Source: a phage. From it: a DNA stretch of 64,000 nucleotides. Under the pieces are notes generated by a model. That model was not told the origin of the DNA and searched no databases. It saw only the letters and a program-made list of their open reading frames with translations. This document shows positions 2,477-63,508 of this stretch, in pieces. Where the stretch lies: the sequence record PZ386972.1; one strand, written 5' to 3'. The position numbers and the translations under genes were made by a program. Position 1 is the stretch's first letter. Every line of letters starts with the position of its first letter.

Positions 2477-3095
2477 AACAATACTCCTGTGTTGGAAATG
2501 AAATAAGTTTTCTTTAGGACTATTCAGAAAGAATAGAACAACTGTTACTGTCAATTTCTCAACAAATTAATTGCAAATACTGAAGTGGGGTGGCAACTTC
2601 CACTTTCACGCTGCGCTGCTGCTTTGCTATATCGCACAAATCCTTGAGGATGGCCGCTAAGCCAGATTTGCTCACCTAATGCTTCATATACTAGCTCATA
2701 CTAGATGCAATATAACTTACAGAATCACGTCTCGGAGTTTTTCACTCCTCCCGTCTCACTTCACAACCACCTCTATCTAGGTTGCTTCGAGGCCTTACCA
2801 GGGTTCCTACGGGACGCAGATCGCTAAGTATTCTATTAACTATTTGTTTAAAAACTAACACGTAACAGTTAAAACAACCCTTAATGTGGCAGCCTAACTG
2901 TTCCGTATCGCGGATTGTAAACAAGAAAAATTAGCAAAATCAATTTTTACTAATGTCTCTCAATTCAATATAAATATTATACCAAGATTTTGGGCATCAT
3001 GCAAGTAAAATTTTCCGGATGGTGCTATCATTGGTCTTAAGTACGGATAAAACCGAGCCAAAATGACTCGGTAATCAGAGTTCAGCTAATAAAAA
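2477..3095. other. about 620 nt non-coding spacer, GC-richer than flanks, no ORF of 60 aa or more
   Basis: Only short ORFs in six-frame track; several local inverted repeats visible. Confidence 0.4.
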
Positions 3096-5977: not shown

Positions 5978-6060
5978 ATTTATAAATCAATTATACATAA
6001 GTTTTAGCTCGAAAGCAAATAAAATAAAAGCCAGGTCGACTAGCAACCCGGCTGATTAGC

Positions 6061-36138: not shown

Positions 36139-36837
36139 ATGAGGATTATTTCTAAATTCGCAGATGTATATGATTTGCAGAACAGTTTGTTTGATCCCGA
36201 TCGTGTTTGGGAGCGTAAAACTGAAGAGTTACTGGTTAAAGTAACTGATGATGCAGAAAAGAACATCGTGCATAGTCGCCAGGTATTTCGTGAAGATTCA
36301 CTATCTTTCCGTGGAGACTTCGAATACTTTGTAAATCCATTGTTCGTTGCAGGTGAAGTTTACTGGTTACACGAGCTGTACTGCTGGCATCCAGAGTTTA
36401 GCTTCAAAACGTTCGACCTCGACACTATGTTCGATAAAATGGAAGAGATGGGATTGCATGCTCGCTCTTACTTAATGGATAAGAGTCGTGGAGATGTTCG
36501 TGAAACAATGCGTGATTTGCTCGTTGAAGCAAAACCTAAAGCAGAACGTATCTTGTCCGAACTGCGTGTACCGATTGCATATGTGAAAGGTATCAAGAAG
36601 AACGATAACGATGATGTTCGTAACTTCGTGATTCAGACTAACATTCGTTTCCATCAGTCAGGTATTCCGTGGCAGGAAATTGAAAGTAACTTATACCGTT
36701 TACACCAAGTTCTCGAACAGTATATCTTCGGTGTACTAGGAACTGGTGAGCCTGATATGATTAAAGTATCAGATAAAGATAGGTTAGCAGCGCATGGATT
36801 TGATACAAAAACTTCTTTCAGGAATATGGCATGGTAA
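36139..36837 (+). CDS. hypothetical protein
   Basis: ORF track. Confidence 0.5.
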   Translation: MRIISKFADVYDLQNSLFDPDRVWERKTEELLVKVTDDAEKNIVHSRQVFREDSLSFRGDFEYFVNPLFVAGEVYWLHELYCWHPEFSFKTFDLDTMFDKMEEMGLHARSYLMDKSRGDVRETMRDLLVEAKPKAERILSELRVPIAYVKGIKKNDNDDVRNFVIQTNIRFHQSGIPWQEIESNLYRLHQVLEQYIFGVLGTGEPDMIKVSDKDRLAAHGFDTKTSFRNMAW

Positions 36838-37243
36838 GTGGTATATCCTGGGAGCAGGTCTAGCGATAGGCATCGGATTCGGTGCTTATCACTTAGTAGA
36901 TAAAGTGGAGACTTTAGCGGGAGATCTTGCAGTAGCTACTAAAAAGATCTCTTCTCTAGAGACTTCCCTTAATAAGGTGAAAGCTGAAAGCGAACTTCGT
37001 GAGACTAGAATGAATCAGTATTTCACGATGAATAATATTTCTCAAGCAGATCTAGACAAAAAGATTAAGCAGCTAGATAAAGCTCTTAGTCGTCAAGATG
37101 TTATCGCTGCAAAACCTGGATTGGTAACATTAATTGCTAAAAAGCAGAATAAAGAGTTCGAGGAAAGATTAGCGTGTTTAACTGGAAACTTGGAGTACTG
37201 CTCGCAGCCACAATCACAATCACAGGCTGTGCAGAAGAAATAA
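36794..37243 (+). CDS. i-spanin-like protein (N-terminal TM helix plus periplasmic coiled coil)
   Basis: TM segment WYILGAGLAIGIGFGAY followed by heptad-rich region; 3' end overlapped by lipoprotein gene in another frame. Confidence 0.4.
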   Translation: MDLIQKLLSGIWHGKWYILGAGLAIGIGFGAYHLVDKVETLAGDLAVATKKISSLETSLNKVKAESELRETRMNQYFTMNNISQADLDKKIKQLDKALSRQDVIAAKPGLVTLIAKKQNKEFEERLACLTGNLEYCSQPQSQSQAVQKK

Positions 37244-37527
37244 AACCAGAGCCATCTCATGAGTTAAAGCAAGCTCATGTAGATTGGCCTAAAGGACTTC
37301 AACCTTGTAGCTTTGACTTTAAATTTGAAAAGAAATTAGCTACAAATGGGGAAGATGGCGTAGTAGTTGTTATACCATACAAAGATTGGAATGCAAAAGC
37401 AAAATGTGAGGAAGCAGTTTACTCTTACATTTCACGACTGACTGGTATGGTCTGCTTTTATCGTCAAGATTTACAAGAAAAACGTTGCTTAGTTTACTAT
37501 CCACCAATTAACAATAGGAAAGATTAA
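37174..37527 (+). CDS. outer-membrane lipoprotein (o-spanin-like), start embedded in the previous gene
   Basis: Signal peptide with lipobox LLAATITITGC; embedded/overlapping arrangement typical of Rz/Rz1 pairs. Confidence 0.4.
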   Translation: MFNWKLGVLLAATITITGCAEEIKPEPSHELKQAHVDWPKGLQPCSFDFKFEKKLATNGEDGVVVVIPYKDWNAKAKCEEAVYSYISRLTGMVCFYRQDLQEKRCLVYYPPINNRKD

Positions 37528-38279
37528 TGTCAGTATTAGTCGGTTTACATGGTGAAGCTGGTTCGGGAAAAGATACCGTTGCAAAATTAATTATCGATTG
37601 GTGTAATGACACGTATCCAACGTGTTTATCTCGTCGTTATAGTTTTGCTAAGCCCGTTTATGAACTTGCATCCGTAATCCTCGGTGTAACTCCAGAGTTT
37701 CTAGGAGAGCGCAGGGGGAAAGAGATTGACCAATGGTTTACGGTCACACAATCTCAGTTGGAACGAGCCAGGGATGTGTGGTTTAAGTACGGTATCGATA
37801 AGTTTGAAGACTTCTCGTACGTTTGGCCTATTTTTGAGGAAAAATATCTTAATCCTCAACAACTTATCTCAGAGAATAAAGAAGACGGACTTTATAGTTT
37901 ATTTATTTCTCCGAGAAAAATGTTACAGCTCGTAGGGACAGAGCTAGGAAGGCAGCTGGTGCATGAACGCATTTGGCTCATAATTCTGGAGCAATCCATC
38001 GCTAAAGACGACCCAGACGTCGCCGTAATAACAGATGTTAGATTCCCCAATGAAGGAGAGCTACTCAGAGAAACAAACCATTTAGATATGGATTCTTTGA
38101 TAGTAAATGTAGTACCCGCTGAGCAGAAGTTTACTATTAAATCAGATCATCCATCTGAAAGTGGTATTCCTGCAAAATATATTACCCACGAATTAGTTAA
38201 TAAATTCGATGGTATCAATAACCTTAAACTAGAAGTTTATAACTTCTGTGACTTAGAGCTAGAACCACTAGTTGAATAA
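37527..38279 (+). CDS. deoxynucleoside monophosphate kinase
   Basis: 250 aa; P-loop GLHGEAGSGKDT at N-terminus; T5-type dNMP kinase size and position. Confidence 0.6.
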   Translation: MSVLVGLHGEAGSGKDTVAKLIIDWCNDTYPTCLSRRYSFAKPVYELASVILGVTPEFLGERRGKEIDQWFTVTQSQLERARDVWFKYGIDKFEDFSYVWPIFEEKYLNPQQLISENKEDGLYSLFISPRKMLQLVGTELGRQLVHERIWLIILEQSIAKDDPDVAVITDVRFPNEGELLRETNHLDMDSLIVNVVPAEQKFTIKSDHPSESGIPAKYITHELVNKFDGINNLKLEVYNFCDLELEPLVE

Positions 38280-38291
38280 TCAAGGATCGCT

Positions 38292-38891
38292 ATGACTAAT
38301 AAAAAAGAAGAAAAGACTAACCTGTTTCACTCCATTCGCCAATCTAATGAGTATACCTTTTTCTTTGATGAAGAATTAGGCCCGCCGGATGAATACCGTG
38401 ATTTATCAATGGTACTTATGCAGGCAAATGAGGACGACGAAATTAATCTGATGATTAATGGCCCGGGTGGTTATGTTGATACTGCTGCACAGTTATCTAA
38501 CTTAATTGCTAATTGCCGTGGAACAGTTATAGGACATCTGGTTGGTCCTAGTGCTTCTGCTTACTGCACAATTTTCCTATCCTGTCATGGATGGGTGGTA
38601 CATCCACATGCTACGCTAATGGGACACACGTTCTCTGGCGGATTCTGTGAGAAAGGTCAAGAAATCAAGAAAGCCTATGAATCTTACAACAAGTTCGTAG
38701 AAGATATGATGCTAGATGTCTACTATCCGTTCTTCTCAATAGATGAAATCGACGAGATGGTAAAAGACAACAAAAATATCTATCTAGATAGCAAGGAAAT
38801 CCATAAGCGTATTGAAATCTTGGCAAAATATCGATCTGAGCAATATAATAAAGCCCATTTACCTAAATCCGAGAAGCACAACGAAGAGTAA
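38292..38891 (+). CDS. ClpP-like serine peptidase
   Basis: MINGPGGYVDTAAQL resembles the ClpP INSPGG motif; GPSASAY and MGHTFSGG around candidate Ser/His. Confidence 0.5.
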   Translation: MTNKKEEKTNLFHSIRQSNEYTFFFDEELGPPDEYRDLSMVLMQANEDDEINLMINGPGGYVDTAAQLSNLIANCRGTVIGHLVGPSASAYCTIFLSCHGWVVHPHATLMGHTFSGGFCEKGQEIKKAYESYNKFVEDMMLDVYYPFFSIDEIDEMVKDNKNIYLDSKEIHKRIEILAKYRSEQYNKAHLPKSEKHNEE

Positions 38892-38900
38892 GTAATTTTA

Positions 38901-38934
38901 AGCCAGGGTTTAACGACCCTGGCTTTTCTTTTAT
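38901..38934 (+). terminator. rho-independent terminator
   Basis: AGCCAGGG...CCCTGGCT hairpin then TTTCTTTT. Confidence 0.65.
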
Positions 38935-38994
38935 CTAAAATTCTTCTTGACAACGACAAAATTTTATGCTCCAGAAGTGATCTTTAAAAACACA

Positions 38995-39023
38995 TTGTAA
39001 TTTTCCTCCAAAATTAGTATAAT
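38995..39023 (+). promoter_or_regulatory. candidate promoter upstream of holin (TTGTAA-17-TATAAT)
   Basis: Seen in sequence; weaker -35. Confidence 0.35.
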
Positions 39024-39047
39024 GGTAATGGTTAGAGGAGGTTACAA

Positions 39048-39704
39048 TTGGAAAAGTTCTTACAATTATTAACAGTACTGCTCCAAGAAGCGAAAGATCC
39101 AGCATCGCTTCTTAAACGTCTGCTAACTATCTTAGTTGCTGTCATTATTTTCTTATTTGTTAGTAATACTAGCGAGGTGATGTCATTCTTAAAGACTTTC
39201 TCCACGTCTGCGGTTCTACAGGATGTTCAAACTCAAAGGATAGATAACTTTCCCAATGTAGCTAGAGAAAAGAGCATGGTACTCTTTTCTCAAACGGGTG
39301 CGGATGCTGTTTTTGTCGTCAAGTATAAACCCGATGCCATTAATGATTATTCTAACATTATTGCATGGGAAAGCAATGCGCAATTAGATAGGGCTGACTT
39401 GGCCGATAAAGCGGTAAATAAAACGTCTGAGCTATATAGACGTCACTTGGAAGGCTTTAACTACGCATCGGATTTAAGTGTAAAAGTAAATAAATACATG
39501 GGGTTAAATATACCTGCGTTTAAGAACGTTACTTTTAATTACATATACACTTGTCCGTATTTCAATCTAAACAATATCTATGCTGGATATATTGGTATTG
39601 CTTGGAAAGATAATCCTGTAGATGCGGCCGATTCTGAGAAATTTAACGAGTATTTAACAAAGCTCTGTTCTCCACAACAGAGATCTTTAGGTAGATCAAT
39701 ATGA
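39048..39704 (+). CDS. putative holin
   Basis: TTG start with GAGGAGG RBS; TM segment LLTILVAVIIFLFV; immediately upstream of and overlapping the endolysin start. Confidence 0.5.
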   Translation: MEKFLQLLTVLLQEAKDPASLLKRLLTILVAVIIFLFVSNTSEVMSFLKTFSTSAVLQDVQTQRIDNFPNVAREKSMVLFSQTGADAVFVVKYKPDAINDYSNIIAWESNAQLDRADLADKAVNKTSELYRRHLEGFNYASDLSVKVNKYMGLNIPAFKNVTFNYIYTCPYFNLNNIYAGYIGIAWKDNPVDAADSEKFNEYLTKLCSPQQRSLGRSI

Positions 39705-40114
39705 GTTTTAAATTTGGTAAAAATAGCGAAAAACAATTAGCTACCGTTAAGCCAGAGCTACAAAAAGTAGCTCGTAGAGCTTTAGAATTATCTCCATATG
39801 ATTTCACGATCGTACAGGGTATTCGTACAGTAGCACAAAGTGCCCAGAATATTGCTAATGGTACTTCATTTTTAAAAGATCCTAGTAAAAGCAAGCATAT
39901 TACTGGGGATGCCCTTGATTTTGCTCCATACATTAATGGCAAAATTGATTGGAATGATTTAGAAGCATTTTGGGCAGTTAAAAAGGCTTTTGAACAAGCT
40001 GGTAAAGAACTGGGCATTAAACTTCGTTTTGGTGCTGATTGGAATGCTTCGGGAGATTATCACGACGAAATAAAACGTGGTACCTATGATGGTGGTCATG
40101 TCGAACTAGTTTAA
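39701..40114 (+). CDS. lys: endolysin, M15-family L-alanyl-D-glutamate peptidase
   Basis: 137 aa; VanY/M15-like H...D...H zinc-binding pattern (SKHITGDALDF, DGGHVE); matches T5-type endolysin size. Confidence 0.75.
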   Translation: MSFKFGKNSEKQLATVKPELQKVARRALELSPYDFTIVQGIRTVAQSAQNIANGTSFLKDPSKSKHITGDALDFAPYINGKIDWNDLEAFWAVKKAFEQAGKELGIKLRFGADWNASGDYHDEIKRGTYDGGHVELV

Positions 40115-56846: not shown

Positions 56847-58511
56847 ATGATTATTTCCGCAGAAAAACAAACCGTTATCCTGAAAATGGCCGCTGACTTT
56901 AATTTCTATGGTAAACGTCTGCGCGCCACTAAACTGGAGGTCTGCGACGATATATCAAAAGCGGTATATGATACTACAAAACACTCGACCGCTATCTGCG
57001 ACTGGCTGGAAGCAAATAAACCAGTTAAACCGAAAGCGGCGAAAGTAGCAAAAGCCATTAAAAACGATGAGCGTCCAGAAGCGGCGGGGATTGTTTCTAG
57101 CACGGTTGAACAGTGGGAAGTAAAACAAGGCAAACGCTTTATTATTACGTCGATTCAGAATAATACTTTCCCGCATAAAAACTTTTTAGCCTCATTGGAA
57201 AAATTCGCTGAATATATCGGTGCTGATTTGCTTGTTTCTAAGTATATTTATAATAAAAACGGCTTCCAAAATGGCGAGGGTGCGGATGGAATCAAATATG
57301 ATTCCGCGTTCGATAAATATATTTGCAGCAAAAACGTGTTTTTAAATAACCGCCGTTTTGCTTTCATGGCTGAAATTAACGTGTTACCAACCGCAGACTA
57401 TCCGCTTTCTGGATTCGCTGAAACTGCAACGGCGCTTAATCTGGAAGGTCTGGCAATCGGTCACGCTAAAATCACCGCTGAAAGCGTGCCAGCTCTCAAA
57501 GGTGAAGTAGTACGCCGTATGTATTCAACGGGCACGGCAACGCTCAAAAACTACATTCAGCAAAAAGCAGGGCAAAAAGCGGAGGCGCTTCATAACTTTG
57601 GTGCGCTGATTGTCGAGTTCGATGATGATGGTGAGTTTTTTGTGCGCCAGCTTGAAACAATGGATGAAAGCGGGGTGTTTTATGATCTGAATGTTTGCGC
57701 TACTCCCGCAGGATGCTATGAAACATCGGGGCATGTGCTAGGCTTGCAATATGGTGACATACACGCCGAAAAACTGGATGATGATTGTGCCGTTGCGTCA
57801 TGGGCTGGCGAAAATAGCTTGCTTGATATTCTTAAACCAAAATATCAGTTTATCCATGACGTGCATGATTTTACATCCCGCAATCATCATAATCGTGCAT
57901 CCGGTGTATTCCTAGCTAAACAATACGCCGCCGGACGTGATAAAGTTCTGGATGATCTTATCGATACTGGTCGCGTGCTGGAATCGATGGAACGTGATTT
58001 TAGTCAAACGATTATTGTGGAATCTAACCATGATTTAGCGTTATCCCGCTGGTTGGATGATCGTAATGCTAACATTAAAGACGATCCAGCAAACGCGGAA
58101 CTATATCACCGCCTGAATGCCGCGATTTACGGAGCTATTGCAGAAAAAGACGATACTTTCAACGTGCTAGATTATGCATTGCGCAAGGTTGCAGGTTGTG
58201 AGTTTAACGCCATTTTCCTAACAACTGACCAATCATTTAAAATTGCAGGCATCGAGTGTGGCGTACACGGTCACAACGGCATTAACGGCAGCCGTGGCAA
58301 TCCTAAACAATTTAAGAAATTGGGCAAATTGAACACCGGACACACTCACACCGCCAGCATTTACGGCGGGGTATATACCGCTGGCGTTGCTGGTAGTCTC
58401 GATATGGGTTACAACGTTGGCGCGTCAAGCTGGACGCAAACGCATTTAATTACCTATGCAAACGGGCAGCGCACTTTGATCGATTTTAAGAATGGTAAAT
58501 TCTTTGCGTAA
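56847..58511 (+). CDS. A1: A1-like pre-early protein, metallophosphoesterase-fold nuclease
   Basis: 554 aa; calcineurin-like motifs GDIHAE, ESNHD, GHTHT; size and placement beside dmp-like gene match T5 A1 (from memory). Confidence 0.6.
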   Translation: MIISAEKQTVILKMAADFNFYGKRLRATKLEVCDDISKAVYDTTKHSTAICDWLEANKPVKPKAAKVAKAIKNDERPEAAGIVSSTVEQWEVKQGKRFIITSIQNNTFPHKNFLASLEKFAEYIGADLLVSKYIYNKNGFQNGEGADGIKYDSAFDKYICSKNVFLNNRRFAFMAEINVLPTADYPLSGFAETATALNLEGLAIGHAKITAESVPALKGEVVRRMYSTGTATLKNYIQQKAGQKAEALHNFGALIVEFDDDGEFFVRQLETMDESGVFYDLNVCATPAGCYETSGHVLGLQYGDIHAEKLDDDCAVASWAGENSLLDILKPKYQFIHDVHDFTSRNHHNRASGVFLAKQYAAGRDKVLDDLIDTGRVLESMERDFSQTIIVESNHDLALSRWLDDRNANIKDDPANAELYHRLNAAIYGAIAEKDDTFNVLDYALRKVAGCEFNAIFLTTDQSFKIAGIECGVHGHNGINGSRGNPKQFKKLGKLNTGHTHTASIYGGVYTAGVAGSLDMGYNVGASSWTQTHLITYANGQRTLIDFKNGKFFA

Positions 58512-59346: not shown

Positions 59347-60081
59347 ATGAATCAAGTTAAAACGAATATTACCCGTAATTTCCCGCATATTTCCCGCGTC
59401 ATGATTTGGGATTTAGACGGCACTATCGTTAATTCCTTCCATCGTGTAGCGCCTTGCTTTGATAGCGAGGGCAATTTAGATTTAAATAAGTATAAAAATG
59501 AAGCCTGCAAACATCATTTAATAATGCAAGATACTTTATTGCCATTAGTTGAATATATGCGCCAGTGCATGAATGACGCAAATACTTTAAACATTATTTG
59601 CACCGCTCGACTAATGAGCAAGTCGGACTATTATTATTTGCGCAAACAAGGCTTGCGCGGTCGTGGTAATAGTAATATTCGCGTGTTTTCCCGTGATACA
59701 CTGCATAAATATTTTGAGGCTGATAAAGTTAGCGAAATATACCACAGCAAGGACGCAGTATATAAATCTTATTATTTTGAATTATTTAAACAACTATATC
59801 CGAACGCTGATTTTACAATGATTGATGATCATAAAGGCGTGCTATCAGCGGCAGCATCATACGGATTTAAAACGCTGGACGCGCAAGCCGTTAACGATAT
59901 TCTATCAATCGGCGTGACATTAATAGGTGAAACCTTTATTGATGAATCTCTCGACGATGATAATGATTATCAATTCCTAGCTGACCGCTTAAAGCTATGC
60001 TGGGAAGGTATGACCGAGGAAGAACGCGCAGAATATAGTTGCAGCCCGCAACAATATATCGAGAAATTAAAAGTTGCGTAA
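59347..60081 (+). CDS. dmp: HAD-type 5'-deoxyribonucleotidase (dmp-like)
   Basis: 244 aa with WDLDGTI HAD motif; size matches T5 dmp (from memory). Confidence 0.6.
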   Translation: MNQVKTNITRNFPHISRVMIWDLDGTIVNSFHRVAPCFDSEGNLDLNKYKNEACKHHLIMQDTLLPLVEYMRQCMNDANTLNIICTARLMSKSDYYYLRKQGLRGRGNSNIRVFSRDTLHKYFEADKVSEIYHSKDAVYKSYYFELFKQLYPNADFTMIDDHKGVLSAAASYGFKTLDAQAVNDILSIGVTLIGETFIDESLDDDNDYQFLADRLKLCWEGMTEEERAEYSCSPQQYIEKLKVA

Positions 60082-60099
60082 TAATTAAAGTTGAAATAG

Positions 60100-60136
60100 T
60101 TTCATCCTGCAATTAAAATGATTGCAGGATGAAACA
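60100..60136. terminator. bidirectional terminator hairpin between convergent gene blocks
   Basis: GTTTCATCCTGCAAT...ATTGCAGGATGAAAC perfect 15-bp inverted repeat. Confidence 0.65.
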
Positions 60137-60245
60137 ATTACCCTGCTAATAGTAACGGGGGTGGCGGTTAGCAGACTAAGTATTTTCGCCGGAGGCAGTG
60201 GACACACCTCCATGTGTAATCTTATGAAATTTGGCAAAAGTCAGA

Positions 60246-60491
60246 TTAGCGCATAGAAGGGTCATCAAACCGATGTTCAGGTCTAAACTCACGAAATCTC
60301 TTCCGCGACGCCCGAGATCCATCCGACCACTCCCGCTCAAACTCCACACGTTTCTCGTCAAACTTCCGCTCCCTTTCCGCAATCTCCCGCGTCACTCCCG
60401 CAATATATTCCCGATGTTTATTGATTGCCGCAGTTGTCCCGAAAACTCCCGCGAGTATCCCGATAATAAAAGCAATTATAATACTAAACAT
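60246..60491 (-). CDS. small single-pass membrane protein
   Basis: ORF track; N-terminal TM helix. Confidence 0.4.
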   Translation of the reverse strand: MFSIIIAFIIGILAGVFGTTAAINKHREYIAGVTREIAERERKFDEKRVEFEREWSDGSRASRKRFREFRPEHRFDDPSMR

Positions 60492-60681
60492 CTAATTCCT
60501 TCTCAATTTGCAGAATACGGGTGCTATCACAACGTTGCAGTAGTACTAGCTTTTCTAGAATAACTTGTTGTTGTTGTTTCACCTGAGCTTCTAGAGTTTT
60601 TAGGCGGAGATACACGACACGAGAGACAATGAGGATTACCCATACTAATATTACTATTAGTGTAACTGCCGCTTCCATCAT
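60484..60681 (-). CDS. small single-pass membrane protein (paralog family)
   Basis: ORF track; TM helix plus coiled-coil tail. Confidence 0.4.
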   Translation of the reverse strand: MMEAAVTLIVILVWVILIVSRVVYLRLKTLEAQVKQQQQVILEKLVLLQRCDSTRILQIEKELDV

Positions 60682-60784
60682 TTACGTTTCCCCGATAGTA
60701 AGGTTTCGATTCTAGCTAAGTGATTATCTAAAATACACTGCCCAATAATCACAATCCCCAGTAGTGCAATAATTACCCATTCCA

Positions 60785-60970
60785 TTATTTACGCTCCTCT
60801 AATAAAGTTTCAATTCTAGATAGTCTATTGCTCAACTGCATTAATTTAATTTCTGTTTGGGTTACAGAGGTATCTATTACACGTAAGCCTATAAAGAGAA
60901 GTATCAATAAGACGAATATGCCAATAATTACCCATTCCATTAAATCCACCCCGCCATAGCTGCTAACCAA
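60785..60970 (-). CDS. small single-pass membrane protein (paralog family, MEWVII N-terminus)
   Basis: ORF track; an unlisted 34-aa sibling MEWVIIALLGIVIIG... lies at about 60690-60790. Confidence 0.4.
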   Translation of the reverse strand: MVSSYGGVDLMEWVIIGIFVLLILLFIGLRVIDTSVTQTEIKLMQLSNRLSRIETLLEERK

Positions 60971-61015
60971 AAACCTACGAAAATTAGGAATAATACAAAA
61001 CCAAATCCGTAAATA

Positions 61016-61348
61016 TTAATCCACGCTTCGTACACTTCTCCGCGCCTGTTCTTTCTTTTGTTTGACATATCTTTCATGCTCCCGTAAATGTGGTATTTGG
61101 AATATTCTAGCAATTGCACGAACCATTATAACTGTTCCTATGAGATCCATCATTTCATCAAATCCAGATTCTTCTAGAAGAAATGATGTTCCCATTACAT
61201 CTTCCATAGTGTCTTGTATGACGTCCTGAATGATTTCATTAACTGCATTGTGAACCGCTTTTGCTCTAGGAGTCATCTCAAGTGGCATAGGTTCCTGGAA
61301 GGGCTTCTCATTTTCTTGCATAGTGTTTTCTGCCAGTACACCATCCAA
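61016..61348 (-). CDS. hypothetical protein
   Basis: ORF track. Confidence 0.4.
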   Translation of the reverse strand: MDGVLAENTMQENEKPFQEPMPLEMTPRAKAVHNAVNEIIQDVIQDTMEDVMGTSFLLEESGFDEMMDLIGTVIMVRAIARIFQIPHLREHERYVKQKKEQARRSVRSVD

Positions 61349-61395
61349 GAAATAAAAAATTTAGTTTACTTGGATGTCTTTTTGTTTTATACTAA

Positions 61396-61662
61396 TTACA
61401 GGTAATTAGATTGTTCTAGTTTAAATTTACAATTACCATATTTAAGGTCAAACTGACTGAGATCCCACCATCCAAACTTAGTACGGAGCTGTACTACTGG
61501 AAAGCGATCTCCCTTAATACGAACTTTTTGAACCTTGAGACCGTAATGTTCTTCTCCCGCACCACCAAAAGATTTTACAAATCCCGTACAAAATGGTTTG
61601 GGAGCAGGTGCACAACCAGATAACATAACTGCGGCAACTAGTGCAATCACAAACTTTTTCAT
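61396..61662 (-). CDS. llp: Llp-like lipoprotein (candidate receptor-blocking superinfection-exclusion protein)
   Basis: Signal peptide with lipobox LSGC; small size; divergent from the adjacent receptor-binding-protein-like gene, as for T5 llp/oad. Confidence 0.5.
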   Translation of the reverse strand: MKKFVIALVAAVMLSGCAPAPKPFCTGFVKSFGGAGEEHYGLKVQKVRIKGDRFPVVQLRTKFGWWDLSQFDLKYGNCKFKLEQSNYL

Positions 61663-61747
61663 ATTTATCTCTCCATTTCTAATTTATGAATCTATTATAG
61701 CAAAATAGAGGGATGAAAGCAAATACATTTTTATAATAGGAGATTAT

Positions 61748-63508
61748 ATGGGTTTTTTCGCTGGAAAATATAGTGATGGTAAAACTGTATTATCACTAAA
61801 TACTGCTAGTGGTGGAGATATTAATGCTCATAAAAACCCTAGTACTAATACTATTTTTCATTCTGATATGCCCTTCGTATTAGTAGAAAGCACTTATGAG
61901 AGTGCATTAAGTAGTGCTGGGAATGGTTTCTATGTATGCCAGATGCCTTCTGCAATAGCTAACTTAAAGAGTAATGATCCTGGTAGAGTTATACTAACAG
62001 CTATAGAAGTTAATGGTACTCATCGTGGTTTTTTGAATGGTACTCAATCTCAAGTTGGGCAGTTTCTTTCTTCTACTCAGGCCGATCCTTTTAGATCATT
62101 TGCTAGCTTAAGTCAAACTGCTGGATTTGCTTTTGGTAATAGTCTAGCTTCAGGTACTTATTCCTATAATAGTTCTCTAGGGCATGAAGAATCTATAGCT
62201 AGAAGTGGTACTGGCGGTACTGTACTACATAGTACTTATCATGGTGTTGTAAGACCAGGTGGTGGTGCACCTGTAGGTGCTACTGTAGCTGAAACTTTCA
62301 AACAACTAGGGTATCCTATAGGAAGTACTTCTGTTCCTATATCTTCAGGTGATACGTACTATTGGGATCCTAACTGGATGGCTCCAATGGGGGCTGGTAA
62401 ACGTGGCCATAACTGGTTTTATGTATGTAATTCTAATATTAGGGGGTATGCTGGATACAAACAAACAATCCCTAGCAATATAGTACAGCACTTTAGTGAT
62501 GGGGGGTATAGATATGTTTGTAGAGGTTCTACTACTAAGTTAGTAAGTCAATCAGCTAATACAAAAATAGTTCAAGATGGCTACGGAGTAACCCCTACAA
62601 AAGTTATATGGTATGTACTAAACCTAAGGTATTCTAATGGTGGTATGTCTGTTTCTAGCAATCCCTTTACAGGTTCTGACATAATAATTTCTCCGTCCAA
62701 CTTTACTATTAAGGGAGTTAAGTTATCTACTACTGGTTGGAAGTTTATTAATCAGAATGCTCTAGGGAATCTAAGTTCTCGTGCTGATATGGAGTATATT
62801 GGAGTAAACGCTGCGCATGGTGGAGTGTTTGGGGATACTACTGGAAGATGTGAATTTGTATGCTCTAACAAAGGATCTATATGGGCACCAGTCAACTATA
62901 GTGGTACAAGAGCACAACTTAGTATTTATAAGTTCTCTGCTAGTAAGACCTGGTATGTAAACTCTAATAATAATACTATTGGTAATGAGAATGGTGTTGT
63001 CTGGGGACCTTCATCAATACCTTTACGCCTATTATCCGGTAATGTGGCTAGTGCCTATATTGGTAATGATATTACTCCGACCTATCCGGGCACTGGTAAT
63101 GTTTATAAATCCCTAGCAACAGTTGGATTAGGCCTACCCAATAATAACTCTACTGTTATACTAACTAGTGAAATATTATCGGGTAACCTTAATGTTGCTG
63201 GGTTACCAGTAAATACGTGGAATGGTAGTGTTTTTCAGGTGCAAGGAAGAAAATCACAAAGTTATACAGGAGGAGATGCTATATTTCACCAAATTTTAGT
63301 TCTTCCTCCCGGAAAGTTAGTACCTTTCCACACTACCTCCGCCTATAAATATACTCCAGATAGCGGAGCTTTTAGTAGAAACAGTTTTATATATACAATA
63401 AAAAATCTTGGTAATGGTAATGCAGAATTAGGTGTTATACTACACGTTAGTTTAGGTTCCGCAGTTTTCTTACCGAGACTACGAGTAACAGTTCAACGCC
63501 TTACCTAA
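61748..63508 (+). CDS. receptor-binding tail protein (pb5/Oad-like), by synteny
   Basis: 586 aa, Gly/Ser/Thr/Asn-rich; adjacent and divergent to llp-like gene. Confidence 0.45.

What the first reader, a model, noticed from the sequence alone, without database searches (positions are those of the whole stretch)
60246..60970. Tandem family of small single-pass membrane proteins next to llp
At least three, and probably four with the unlisted 34-aa ORF at about 60690-60790, minus-strand genes encode 35-80-aa proteins with similar N-terminal TM helices (MEWVIIGIFVLLI, MEWVIIALLGIVI, MMEAAVTLIVILVWV) and short coiled-coil tails ending in RIETLL-like motifs. Their position beside the Llp-like lipoprotein suggests membrane-level functions such as superinfection exclusion, holin/antiholin-like activity or receptor masking.
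Basis: seen in the sequence. Interest (0 to 1): 0.5.

Follow-up and report, generated by a model that had tools for sequence, protein, structure and literature searches.

The report
T5 small membrane-protein genes after llp
This is the already-annotated run of tiny single-pass membrane-protein genes (T5.159 to T5.162, plus one extra copy) that follows the receptor-blocking lipoprotein gene in T5-like phages: the genes are real, expressed and dispensable in the laboratory, and their function is still unknown.

Summary
The window is a T5-like phage (Tequintavirus). The flagged ORFs exist and are real genes. Five translationally coupled minus-strand genes (42, 51, 35, 65 and 81 aa; 60246-61068) lie between the Cor/Llp-like lipoprotein gene and the terminal-repeat boundary. 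They are orthologues of T5.159, T5.160, T5.161 and T5.162, plus a second T5.160 copy.

All are under purifying selection in the annotated frame (dN/dS 0.12-0.33). All have Shine-Dalgarno sites and one hydrophobic helix.

Only the 51-aa and 35-aa proteins are demonstrable paralogues (MEWVII...RIETLL). The 65-, 81- and 42-aa proteins are separate families that share architecture, not sequence.

The only early-class promoter motif (TTGCTT-N17-TATAAT) in the locus sits in front of the lipoprotein gene. Published RNA-seq of phage Bas33 shows the genes transcribed after second-step DNA transfer. A published CRISPRi-ART screen calls T5.159-162 "Not Fit", meaning dispensable.

Gene content varies among close relatives, and all four families tested are confined to T5-like phages. 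Predicted topology puts every soluble tail in the cytoplasm, which argues against periplasmic receptor masking. A complete lysis cassette lies elsewhere in the window.

Best reading: accessory inner-membrane proteins co-expressed with Llp, possibly for exclusion or envelope modulation. The function remains unproven, and interest is low to moderate.

The parts
61694..61722 (-). Early-class sigma-70 promoter TTGCTT-N17-TATAAT in front of the Cor/Llp-like gene. It is the presumed promoter of the whole operon.
   Evidence: Exact match. The motif occurs 23 times in the window against 1.1 expected, with 20 matches on the + strand of the early-gene region at 8-44 kb. No other copy lies between here and 60246. 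T5 annotates a promoter at the equivalent place.
61396..61662 (-). Cor/Llp-like receptor-blocking lipoprotein gene (88 aa, lipobox LSGC). First gene of the operon.
   Evidence: phrog_1119 'Cor superinfection exclusion protein', E 5e-26. Pfam LPAM_1 above its cut-off. dN/dS 0.18.
61016..61321 (-). 101-aa acidic protein gene (phrog_16810). It overlaps the start of the 42-aa gene by 53 nt. It is intact here but reduced to a deletion remnant in most relatives, including T5.
   Evidence: Intact only in WIN and L027, with stop-interrupted longer copies in L021 and L023. The other 22 loci with the Cor-type gene have a 165-180-bp remnant spacer. T5 also has only a partial, stop-interrupted remnant.
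60940..61068 (-). 42-aa gene, T5.159 orthologue. Basic N-terminus (KRKNRR) and a C-terminal hydrophobic helix, giving a tail-anchored protein predicted N-in.
   Evidence: phrog_8596, E 6e-31. dN/dS 0.15. Topology.
60785..60940 (-). 51-aa gene, an extra paralogue of T5.160 (MEWVIIGIF...RIETLLEERK). Found in only 38 phage records.
   Evidence: phrog_6369, E 2e-16. Its first 21 nt repeat those of the next gene, TAATGGAATGGGTAATTATTG.
60678..60785 (-). 35-aa gene, T5.160 orthologue (MEWVIIALL...RIETLLSGKRK).
   Evidence: phrog_6369, E 5e-26. dN/dS 0.12.
60484..60681 (-). 65-aa gene, T5.161 orthologue. N-terminal transmembrane helix that continues into a heptad-like helix.
   Evidence: phrog_5851, E 5e-29. 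dN/dS 0.30. AlphaFold2 gives one helix over residues 2-64, pLDDT 84.6. Cleanly deleted in 7 of 30 loci.
60246..60491 (-). 81-aa gene, T5.162 orthologue. Transmembrane helix with G11xxxG15xxG18, then a charged Arg/Glu-rich helix, then a variable tail after residue 67.
   Evidence: phrog_6447, E 7e-47. dN/dS 0.33. AlphaFold2 gives a helix over residues 2-69, pLDDT 69. Family limited to T5-like phages.
60099..60135 (-). Perfect 15-bp hairpin followed by UAUUUCAACUUU. The likely terminator of the operon. It lies just inside the terminal repeat, 18 nt after the convergent dmp gene.
   Evidence: region z = -4.8. Sequence. It narrowly misses the scanner's T-run rule.
60204..60205 (.). Approximate boundary between unique DNA and the terminal repeat, 41-42 nt after the stop codon of the 81-aa gene.
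   Evidence: Transferred from the RTR annotations of phage MM-1 and T5. Not measured in this window.

Best explanation
The finding is the distal part of the early llp operon of a T5-like phage. It consists of five translationally coupled genes: orthologues of T5.159, T5.160, T5.161 and T5.162, plus a second T5.160 copy.

**Shown**
- The genes are real and under purifying selection.
- They are transcribed only after second-step DNA transfer.
- They are individually dispensable for T5 growth on laboratory E. coli.
- They vary in copy number and content among close relatives.

**Inferred**
- Transcription starts at the early-class promoter in front of the lipoprotein gene and ends at the hairpin just inside the terminal repeat.
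- Four of the proteins insert N-out/C-in and the 42-aa protein is tail-anchored N-in. All soluble parts therefore face the cytoplasm.
- The continuous transmembrane-plus-tail helices, the heptad-like pattern and the Gly-zipper-like motif suggest that the proteins act by helix-helix association in the inner membrane, either with themselves or with a partner membrane protein.

**Most likely role (speculative)**
They are an inner-membrane complement to Llp's outer-membrane receptor block. They would exclude or hinder secondary DNA entry, or otherwise condition the envelope of the infected cell. They are encoded at the genome end that enters last, so they cannot interfere with the phage's own DNA transfer.

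**Confidence.** Gene reality and identity, about 0.95. Inner-membrane location, about 0.8. Operon with llp, about 0.6. Exclusion or envelope-conditioning role, about 0.3.
For: - **Identity.** The locus matches 320 T5-like phage records. Synteny and 72-100% protein identity link it to T5.159-162.
- **Coding.** dN/dS is 0.12-0.33 in frame and about 1 in most off-frame comparisons. Start and stop codons overlap, and each start has a Shine-Dalgarno site.
- **Membrane.** Each protein has one strongly hydrophobic segment, with K/R bias on the tail side. AlphaFold2 models are single long helices.
- **Promoter.** The only early-class promoter motif in the locus lies in front of the lipoprotein gene. 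No canonical terminator lies between that gene and the 81-aa gene. A strong hairpin follows the 81-aa gene.
- **Expression.** Bas33 RNA-seq at 20 min gives TPM 162/137 (51-aa gene), 462/408 (65-aa gene), 22/13 (81-aa gene) and 219/127 (Cor). Counts fall to about 0 when second-step transfer is blocked. Llp is expressed early according to the title of Decker et al. 1994, cited in PMC9586334.
- **Accessory nature.** CRISPRi-ART calls T5.159-162 'Not Fit' (PMC11879866 supplement). The 65-aa gene is absent from 7 of 30 loci, the 51-aa gene is present in only 38 records, and the 81-aa tail is replaced where homing endonucleases are inserted.
- **Not receptor-specific.** The same genes sit beside different Llp types.
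- **Position.** Small transmembrane-protein genes occupy the same slot before the terminal repeat in Providencia phage PSTCR5, Klebsiella Sugarlandvirus and Pectobacterium phage My1.
Against: - No experiment assigns any function to these proteins.
- No homologue of known function was found in Pfam, NCBIfam, PADLOC or PHROGs, or in searches of 5.8 billion and 1.84 billion proteins.
- Topology is only a positive-inside inference, and the charge bias is weak for the 51-aa protein.
- Co-transcription with llp is inferred from motifs. The RNA-seq counts are uneven along the array, and genes under 150 nt were not counted.
- Dispensability and variability fit many other accessory roles equally well.
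Confidence: 0.35

Rival explanations
1. Host-takeover or anti-defence effectors. The small membrane proteins would bind and inhibit a host inner-membrane machine (divisome or elongasome, a transporter, FtsH, or a membrane-bound abortive-infection effector) rather than excluding other phages.
For: - Early-class promoter.
- Dispensable on a defence-poor laboratory strain.
- Presence/absence and copy-number variation typical of arms-race genes.
- Cytoplasm-facing tails.
- Precedent: an early small phage protein, Emp of Mosigvirus AV110, that binds MreB/C/D (bioRxiv 10.64898/2026.09.14.751387).
Against: - No match to any PADLOC or known anti-defence family.
- No toxicity or partner data were found.
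- The conserved position next to the receptor-blocking gene is not explained.
Confidence: 0.25
2. Lysis-timing regulators (antiholin- or holin-like helpers) acting on the T5 holin in the inner membrane.
For: - The proteins are small and bitopic with charged cytoplasmic tails.
- The T5 holin is itself a single-TM protein (annotation), so TM-TM regulation is conceivable.
Against: - Holin, endolysin and both spanins are encoded together about 20 kb away, at 36.8-40.1 kb in the window.
- No holin or antiholin family hit.
- No fitness effect of knock-down.
- The array is linked to llp, not to the lysis genes.
Confidence: 0.08
3. Periplasmic receptor masking or help for Llp (sorting or stabilising the lipoprotein, or blocking the receptor from the periplasm).
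For: Adjacency to, and probable co-transcription with, the lipoprotein gene.
Against: - The predicted periplasmic parts are only 0-4 residues long.
- The same small genes accompany non-homologous lipoproteins that serve different receptors.
- Llp alone reproduces the T5 exclusion phenotypes when expressed (PMC9586334).
Confidence: 0.05
4. Virion or tail assembly proteins, as some database records name the 65-aa family ('tail assembly protein').
For: Only the names given in several GenBank/UniRef records.
Against: - A 64-65-aa protein with an N-terminal transmembrane helix matches no tail-chaperone family.
- The only promoter motif upstream is of the early class.
- The gene is dispensable and absent from 7 of 30 related loci.
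Confidence: 0.02
5. Spurious ORFs. On this reading the hydrophobic reading frames arise by chance in AT-rich spacer DNA.
For: The ORFs are very short (35-81 codons), and two of them received almost no RNA-seq counts.
Against: - Frame-specific purifying selection.
- ORFs kept in about 30 loci.
- Coupled start and stop codons with Shine-Dalgarno sites.
- The zero counts are an artefact shared by other genes under 150 nt that lie inside highly expressed operons.
Confidence: 0.02

Closest known systems
Phage T5 genes T5.159, T5.160, T5.161 and T5.162 (NC_005859; PHROGs 8596, 6369, 5851, 6447)
   Same: Same order, same position between llp and the right terminal repeat, and 72-91% protein identity. 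All are annotated 'contains single transmembrane domain'.
   Different: - The window has a second T5.160-type gene (51 aa), found in only 38 phage records.
- It also has an intact 101-aa gene upstream that is only a remnant in T5.
- The adjacent lipoprotein is Cor-type rather than the T5 FhuA-specific Llp.
Llp / Cor outer-membrane lipoproteins (superinfection exclusion, 'lytic conversion')
   Same: Same presumed operon, early expression, small size, and action on the envelope.
   Different: The small proteins have no lipobox or signal peptide. They are predicted to be inner-membrane proteins with cytoplasmic tails, and they show no sequence similarity to Llp or Cor.
Inner-membrane superinfection-exclusion proteins of other phages, such as T4 Imm and P22 SieA (from general knowledge, not tested here)
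   Same: They are small, phage-encoded inner-membrane proteins. They are made early, are non-essential, and block DNA entry by secondary phages. This is the working model proposed here.
   Different: No sequence relationship was detected, and no exclusion phenotype is known for T5.159-162.
i-spanins (lambda Rz type; T5.045 orthologue in this window at 36824-37240)
   Same: An N-terminal transmembrane helix followed by a coiled-coil-like helix.
   Different: - Spanins are N-in/C-out with a periplasmic coiled coil, and they pair with an o-spanin lipoprotein.
- Here the topology is predicted to be the reverse and the proteins are two to four times shorter.
- The phage's real spanins are elsewhere.
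Small transmembrane-protein genes at the same slot in other Demerecviridae (Providencia phage PSTCR5, Klebsiella Sugarlandvirus, Pectobacterium phage My1)
   Same: They occupy the same place, just before the terminal repeat and next to the RBP or terminase genes. All are small single-TM proteins.
- PSTCR5 has five ORFs of 29-46 aa.
- Sugarlandvirus has 74- and 148-aa proteins with a transmembrane helix plus a further helix.
- My1_149 is a transmembrane helix plus a coiled coil.

   Different: Sequence similarity is marginal at best. T5.161 against My1_149 gives hhalign P = 0.0015 with 52 columns in register, and z = 2.2-4.7. Sugarlandvirus gives nothing significant. The Vibrio phage examined has no such array.

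Membership tests
T5.160 family (phrog_6369) | Full-length significant match to the family profile | tested here: met
   35-aa protein E 5.4e-26; 51-aa protein E 2e-16.
T5.160 family (phrog_6369) | Position between the T5.159 and T5.161 orthologues, downstream of llp | tested here: met
T5.159 (phrog_8596), T5.161 (phrog_5851) and T5.162 (phrog_6447) families | Full-length significant match to the family profile, and synteny with T5 | tested here: met
   E 6e-31, 4.8e-29 and 7.3e-47. Synteny.
   Met only for the 51-aa/35-aa pair (p<0.0005). All other pairs give p of 0.06 or higher with partition-preserving shuffles. hhalign probability is 1-4% among the 35/51-, 65- and 81-aa profiles.
Holins | Gene sits in the lysis cassette next to the endolysin | tested here: not met
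   The holin and endolysin orthologues are at 39048-40111, about 20 kb away.
Holins | Match to a holin family profile | tested here: not met
   No holin family in Pfam or PHROGs matches.
Holins | Forms lethal membrane holes at a programmed time | not testable with these tools
   Needs expression and membrane-integrity assays.
Two-component spanins (i-spanin) | N-in/C-out topology with a periplasmic coiled coil and a cognate o-spanin lipoprotein gene overlapping or adjacent | tested here: not met
   The K/R bias predicts cytoplasmic tails (an inference). The T5.044/T5.045 spanin orthologues are at 36824-37524.
Cor/Llp receptor-blocking lipoproteins | Lipoprotein signal peptide with a lipobox cysteine | tested here: not met
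   Only the neighbouring 88-aa protein hits LPAM_1 and phrog_1119. The small proteins have no lipobox (read from the sequences).
Inner-membrane superinfection-exclusion proteins (T4 Imm, P22 SieA and similar) | Sequence or profile similarity to a characterised member | tested here: not met
   No hit in PHROGs or Pfam other than their own uncharacterised families. The large-database searches found only T5-like phage proteins.
Inner-membrane superinfection-exclusion proteins (T4 Imm, P22 SieA and similar) | Expression blocks DNA entry of a secondary phage | not testable with these tools
   Needs plating and DNA-injection assays.
LapA_dom (Pfam PF06305) | Score at or above the Pfam gathering threshold | tested here: not met
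   The 81-aa protein scores 20.2 bits (E 5.7e-4) against a cut-off of 28. An exhaustive profile search found no relatives outside T5-like phages.
Tail assembly proteins (the label on some records of the 65-aa family) | Similarity to a tail assembly or chaperone family, and a requirement for tail formation | tested here: not met
   No such family matches. The gene is absent from 7 of 30 loci. The T5 knock-down is 'Not Fit'.

The most novel reading that the evidence does not exclude
The array is the inner-membrane half of a two-layer 'lytic conversion' module. Llp shuts the outer-membrane receptor. The small bitopic proteins would seal or guard the inner-membrane DNA-entry route, or disable membrane-based competitors and defences. 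The module is deliberately encoded at the genome end that enters last. Small transmembrane-protein genes at the same slot in Providencia, Klebsiella and Pectobacterium relatives would then mark an old, fast-evolving positional module of Demerecviridae.
Probability: 0.2. Interest if true: 0.55.

Novelty: already known. Interest (0 to 1): 0.25.

Why it matters
T5 is a classic model phage, and this is a small block of conserved genes in it that still has no assigned function. The genes sit next to one of the best-understood superinfection-exclusion proteins. If they prove to be an inner-membrane exclusion or envelope-conditioning module, they would add a second layer to T5 'lytic conversion'. They would also supply small, easily synthesised peptides that target bacterial membrane processes. 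As it stands, the result mainly tidies annotation. It gives five real genes, one true paralogue pair, shows the 'tail assembly protein' label to be unsupported, and makes receptor masking and holin roles unlikely.

Tried and rejected
**Family libraries.** I scanned Pfam, NCBIfam and PADLOC and found nothing above threshold. The weak LapA_dom, FtsL and SecE-like matches are what hydrophobic helices commonly give.

**Large-database searches.**
- Profile searches of the 81-, 35/51- and 65-aa families against 5.8 billion proteins found only T5-like phage proteins.
- The exhaustive search of the 81-aa profile against 1.84 billion representatives found five proteins in all, each from the same family.

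**Links between the families.** hhalign comparisons among the 35/51-aa, 65-aa and 81-aa families were negative.

**Cross-genus homology.** The result is marginal for My1_149 and negative for the Sugarlandvirus proteins. I could not build profiles for those proteins.

**Structure.** AlphaFold2 gave single long helices, so I did not run a fold search. It would be meaningless for one helix.

**RNA families.** Rfam found nothing relevant in 59800-61800.

**Internal promoters.** The sigma-70-like hits inside the array are no more frequent than in shuffled sequence.

**Literature.**
- No searchable paper names T5.159-162 in its main text.
- The T5 two-step-injection preprint, the BF23 genome paper, the phiR2-01 proteogenomics paper and the Llp structure paper say nothing about these genes.
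- HIDEN-SEQ did not include a T5-like phage.
- A search for T5 toxicity screens found nothing.
Full report
**What the window is**

The region matches 320 phage records by megablast. All that were examined are T5-like (Tequintavirus and relatives), at 80-97% identity. Annotated relatives show the same layout: A1, two small genes, the dmp phosphatase, then on the other strand a run of small genes, a 'Cor superinfection exclusion' lipoprotein gene, and the divergent receptor-binding protein gene.

In T5 itself the same genes are T5.158 (llp), T5.159, T5.160, T5.161 and T5.162. The right terminal repeat starts 42 nt after T5.162. The finding is therefore the T5.159-T5.162 block.

**Checking the observation**

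- The 61-aa TTG-start ORF is better read from the ATG at 60940, which gives the 51-aa protein annotated in relatives.
- A fifth gene, 60940-61068 (42 aa), belongs to the array.
- The genes are joined by TAATG, TAATG, ATGA and an 8-nt overlap. Each start is preceded by a Shine-Dalgarno-like motif (read).

I collected 30 related loci and extracted the orthologues. Four of the five ORFs are nearly always intact. The 65-aa gene is absent from some loci, and the 51-aa gene is present in only five of the 30.

Nei-Gojobori counts over all pairs give dN/dS of 0.15 (42 aa), 0.19 (51 aa), 0.12 (35 aa), 0.30 (65 aa) and 0.33 (81 aa) in the annotated frame. Most comparisons in the other two frames give about 1, and the lipoprotein gene gives 0.18. 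The 51-aa value rests on only four distinct sequences, and its alternative frame scores almost the same (0.22), so frame-specific selection is not shown for that gene. These are real protein-coding genes.

**Is it a family?**

Only in part.
- The 51-aa and 35-aa proteins share MEWVII at the start and RIETLL near the end.
- They align with score 59 against 22-24 +/- 4.5 for shuffles, including shuffles that keep the hydrophobic head and polar tail apart (p<0.0005).
- Both hit phrog_6369.
- The 51-aa gene is one extra gene unit. Its first 21 nt (TAATGGAATGGGTAATTATTG) repeat those of the 35-aa gene. It occurs in only 38 phage records, whereas the 81-aa family occurs in 444.

The 65-, 81- and 42-aa proteins belong to separate PHROGs. 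They show no significant similarity to the pair or to each other. Profile comparisons among the 35/51-, 65- and 81-aa families agree (hhalign probability 1-4%). What they share is architecture: one hydrophobic helix and a polar helical tail.

**Anatomy of the proteins**

Each has one strongly hydrophobic 19-residue segment, with mean Kyte-Doolittle 2.3-3.1.
- In the 35-, 51-, 65- and 81-aa proteins the helix is at the extreme N-terminus, preceded by 0-4 residues that carry no K or R. The K and R residues follow it. By the positive-inside rule this predicts N-out/C-in.
- The 42-aa protein is the reverse. It has a basic N-terminus (KRKNRR) and a C-terminal helix that ends the protein, so it is tail-anchored and N-in.

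Every soluble part is therefore predicted to face the cytoplasm. This is an inference, and the charge bias is weakest for the 51-aa protein.

AlphaFold2 models the 65-aa protein as one helix over residues 2-64 (pLDDT 84.6). It models the 81-aa protein as one helix over residues 2-69 (pLDDT 69) with a disordered end. The 81-aa helix carries G11xxxG15xxG18, and its tail is rich in Arg and Glu. The tails of the 51-aa and 35-aa proteins place L/I/V/M at 75% of the a/d positions, though over few positions. The 65-aa tail does so at 50%.

**Expression**

The motif TTGCTT-N17-TATAAT occurs 23 times in the window (one mismatch allowed) against 1.1 expected.
- Twenty copies are on the + strand between 8 and 44 kb, which is the early-gene region in this orientation.
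- None lies in the pre-early region at 45-60 kb.
- One exact copy lies on the minus strand at 61694-61722, directly upstream of the lipoprotein gene. T5 annotates a promoter at the same place.
- From memory, its core (ATTTGCTTT ... TATAATAGATTCA) closely resembles the T5 PN25 promoter used in expression vectors. I did not test this.

No further copy of the motif and no canonical terminator lies between the lipoprotein gene and the 81-aa gene. After the 81-aa gene comes a perfect 15-bp hairpin (60099-60135) followed by a U-rich stretch. The simplest reading is one early operon: the lipoprotein gene, the 101-aa gene, then the five small genes.

Published data agree in part.
- In Bas33 (phage HildyBeyeler) bas33_0187 to bas33_0191 are the same five genes.
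- RNA-seq at 20 min gave TPM 162/137 for the 51-aa gene, 462/408 for the 65-aa gene, 22/13 for the 81-aa gene and 219/127 for the lipoprotein gene.
- Counts were essentially zero when daunorubicin blocked second-step DNA transfer (bioRxiv 10.64898/2026.01.13.699316, Table S1).
- The near-zero counts for the 129- and 108-nt genes are a counting artefact. Other genes shorter than 150 nt inside highly expressed late operons (bas33_0009, bas33_0010) also show about 0.
- Llp is 'expressed early during infection' according to the title of Decker et al. 1994, cited in PMC9586334.

**Dispensability and variability**

In the CRISPRi-ART screen of T5, knock-down of T5.159, T5.160, T5.161 and T5.162 scored -3.86, -3.55, -4.11 and -3.60. 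All were classed 'Not Fit', meaning no measurable contribution to phage fitness on the laboratory host (PMC11879866, supplementary file 16).

Natural isolates agree.
- The 65-aa gene is precisely deleted in 7 of the 30 loci. Another locus carries an allele only 40% identical.
- The 35-aa protein has two alternative C-termini.
- The last 14 codons of the 81-aa gene are replaced wherever a homing-endonuclease gene has inserted behind residue 66-67.
- The upstream 101-aa gene is intact in the window and in one other locus, is stop-interrupted in two more, and is a deletion remnant in the rest, T5 included.

**Distribution**

Profile searches with the 81-aa, 35/51-aa and 65-aa families against 5.8 billion proteins returned only proteins from T5-like phage contigs. 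An exhaustive HMMER search of 1.84 billion representatives with the 81-aa profile found five proteins, all of the same family. The 42-aa family was not searched beyond its PHROG match. Pfam, NCBIfam and PADLOC gave nothing above threshold.

**What it is probably not**

- *Receptor masking.* The predicted periplasmic parts are 0-4 residues long. The same small genes accompany non-homologous lipoproteins: T5's FhuA-specific Llp, and the Cor-type lipoprotein here.
- *Holin or spanin.* The window carries orthologues of the T5 holin (39048-39701), endolysin (39701-40111) and both spanins (36824-37524).
- *Tail assembly protein*, the label on some records of the 65-aa family. Nothing supports it.
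- *Known RNA element.* None is present.

**What it most likely is**

The genes encode accessory inner-membrane proteins made together with Llp. The argument for an exclusion or envelope-conditioning role is circumstantial. It rests on:
- co-expression with a proven exclusion protein;
- early timing;
- dispensability;
- rapid turnover of gene content;
- the position of the operon at the genome end that enters the cell last.

On the last point, the first-step-transfer DNA is the left end (bioRxiv 10.1101/866236), and this locus abuts the right repeat. Proteins that close or alter the entry route would therefore be made only once the phage's own DNA is inside. I give this role about 0.3. The main rival, inhibition of a host membrane machine or a membrane-bound defence, is about as likely.

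**A positional pattern in distant relatives**

The slot just before the terminal repeat also holds small transmembrane-protein genes in three other lineages.
- Providencia phage PSTCR5 has five ORFs of 29-46 aa, each with one hydrophobic helix.
- Klebsiella Sugarlandvirus has a 74-aa protein (transmembrane helix plus coiled coil) and a 148-aa protein (transmembrane helix, a further helix and a Ser-rich tail), with no lipoprotein there. The 74-aa gene is present in 80 records.
- Pectobacterium phage My1 has My1_149, a transmembrane helix plus coiled coil.

Sequence similarity is marginal. T5.161 against My1_149 aligns in register over 52 columns at 37% identity, with hhalign P = 0.0015 and shuffle z = 2.2-4.7. 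For Sugarlandvirus it is not significant. A Vibrio relative lacks such an array. This is suggestive rather than established.

**Verdict**

The 'family' reduces to one paralogue pair. Interest is low to moderate.

Noticed in passing
window 61016-61321 (-): A 101-aa acidic protein gene (phrog_16810) lies between the lipoprotein gene and the 42-aa gene and overlaps the latter by 53 nt. It is intact here and in L027. L021 and L023 keep longer, stop-interrupted copies. The other 22 Cor-type loci have a 165-180-bp remnant, and T5 also has only a partial remnant. Its function is unknown.
   Followed up: partly
L018, L021, L013, L024 just after residue 66-67 of the 81-aa gene; L030 1658-2197 (bas33_0186): The 3' end of the T5.162-type gene is an insertion site for homing-endonuclease genes. 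Each insertion replaces the last 14 or so codons, which produces at least four alternative C-terminal tails. The tail is therefore not needed for whatever the protein does.
   Followed up: partly
window 8186-44128 (+), also 2976-3004 and 5990-6018 (-): TTGCTT-N17-TATAAT (one mismatch allowed) occurs 23 times against 1.1 expected. It marks the early-gene promoters. None lies in the pre-early region at 45-60 kb. The generic sigma-70 scan misses these sites because TTGCTT matches TTGACA at only 3 of 6 positions.
   Followed up: partly
window about 60204, with dmp at 59347-60081 and A1 at 56847-58511: The window joins the right end of the unique region directly to terminal-repeat genes. It therefore spans the unique/repeat junction, or comes from an assembly with the repeat collapsed. 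The boundary position was transferred from the T5 and MM-1 annotations, not measured.
   Followed up: partly
L032 4840-5388 (-); L031 3886-4560 (-); L035 8701-9012 (+): Small single-TM protein genes occupy the same slot before the terminal repeat in Providencia phage PSTCR5 (five ORFs of 29-46 aa), Klebsiella Sugarlandvirus (74 and 148 aa) and Pectobacterium phage My1 (103 aa). My1_149 aligns in register with the T5.161 family at marginal significance.
   Followed up: partly
Bas33 RNA-seq table (bioRxiv 10.64898/2026.01.13.699316, Table S1): Genes shorter than about 150 nt (bas33_0009, 0010, 0189, 0191) get almost no counts even inside strongly expressed operons. This appears to be a per-gene read-assignment artefact and could make tiny phage genes look silent.
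   Followed up: partly
L015 (65-aa gene) and L022 (81-aa gene): Single in-frame stop codons occur in otherwise conserved copies (IL*IE and TR*IA). They are either recent pseudogenes or sequencing errors.
   Followed up: no
window 36824-40111 (+): The complete lysis set of the phage is here: i-spanin 36824-37240, o-spanin 37174-37524, holin 39048-39701 and endolysin 39701-40111, at 89-99% identity to T5.045, T5.044, T5.041 and T5.040.
   Followed up: yes
database records of the 65-aa family: Many UniRef and GenBank entries call this 64-aa membrane protein 'tail assembly protein'. Some records label neighbouring small ORFs 'receptor blocking protein' or 'tail fiber protein'. These names appear to be propagated errors.
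   Followed up: partly
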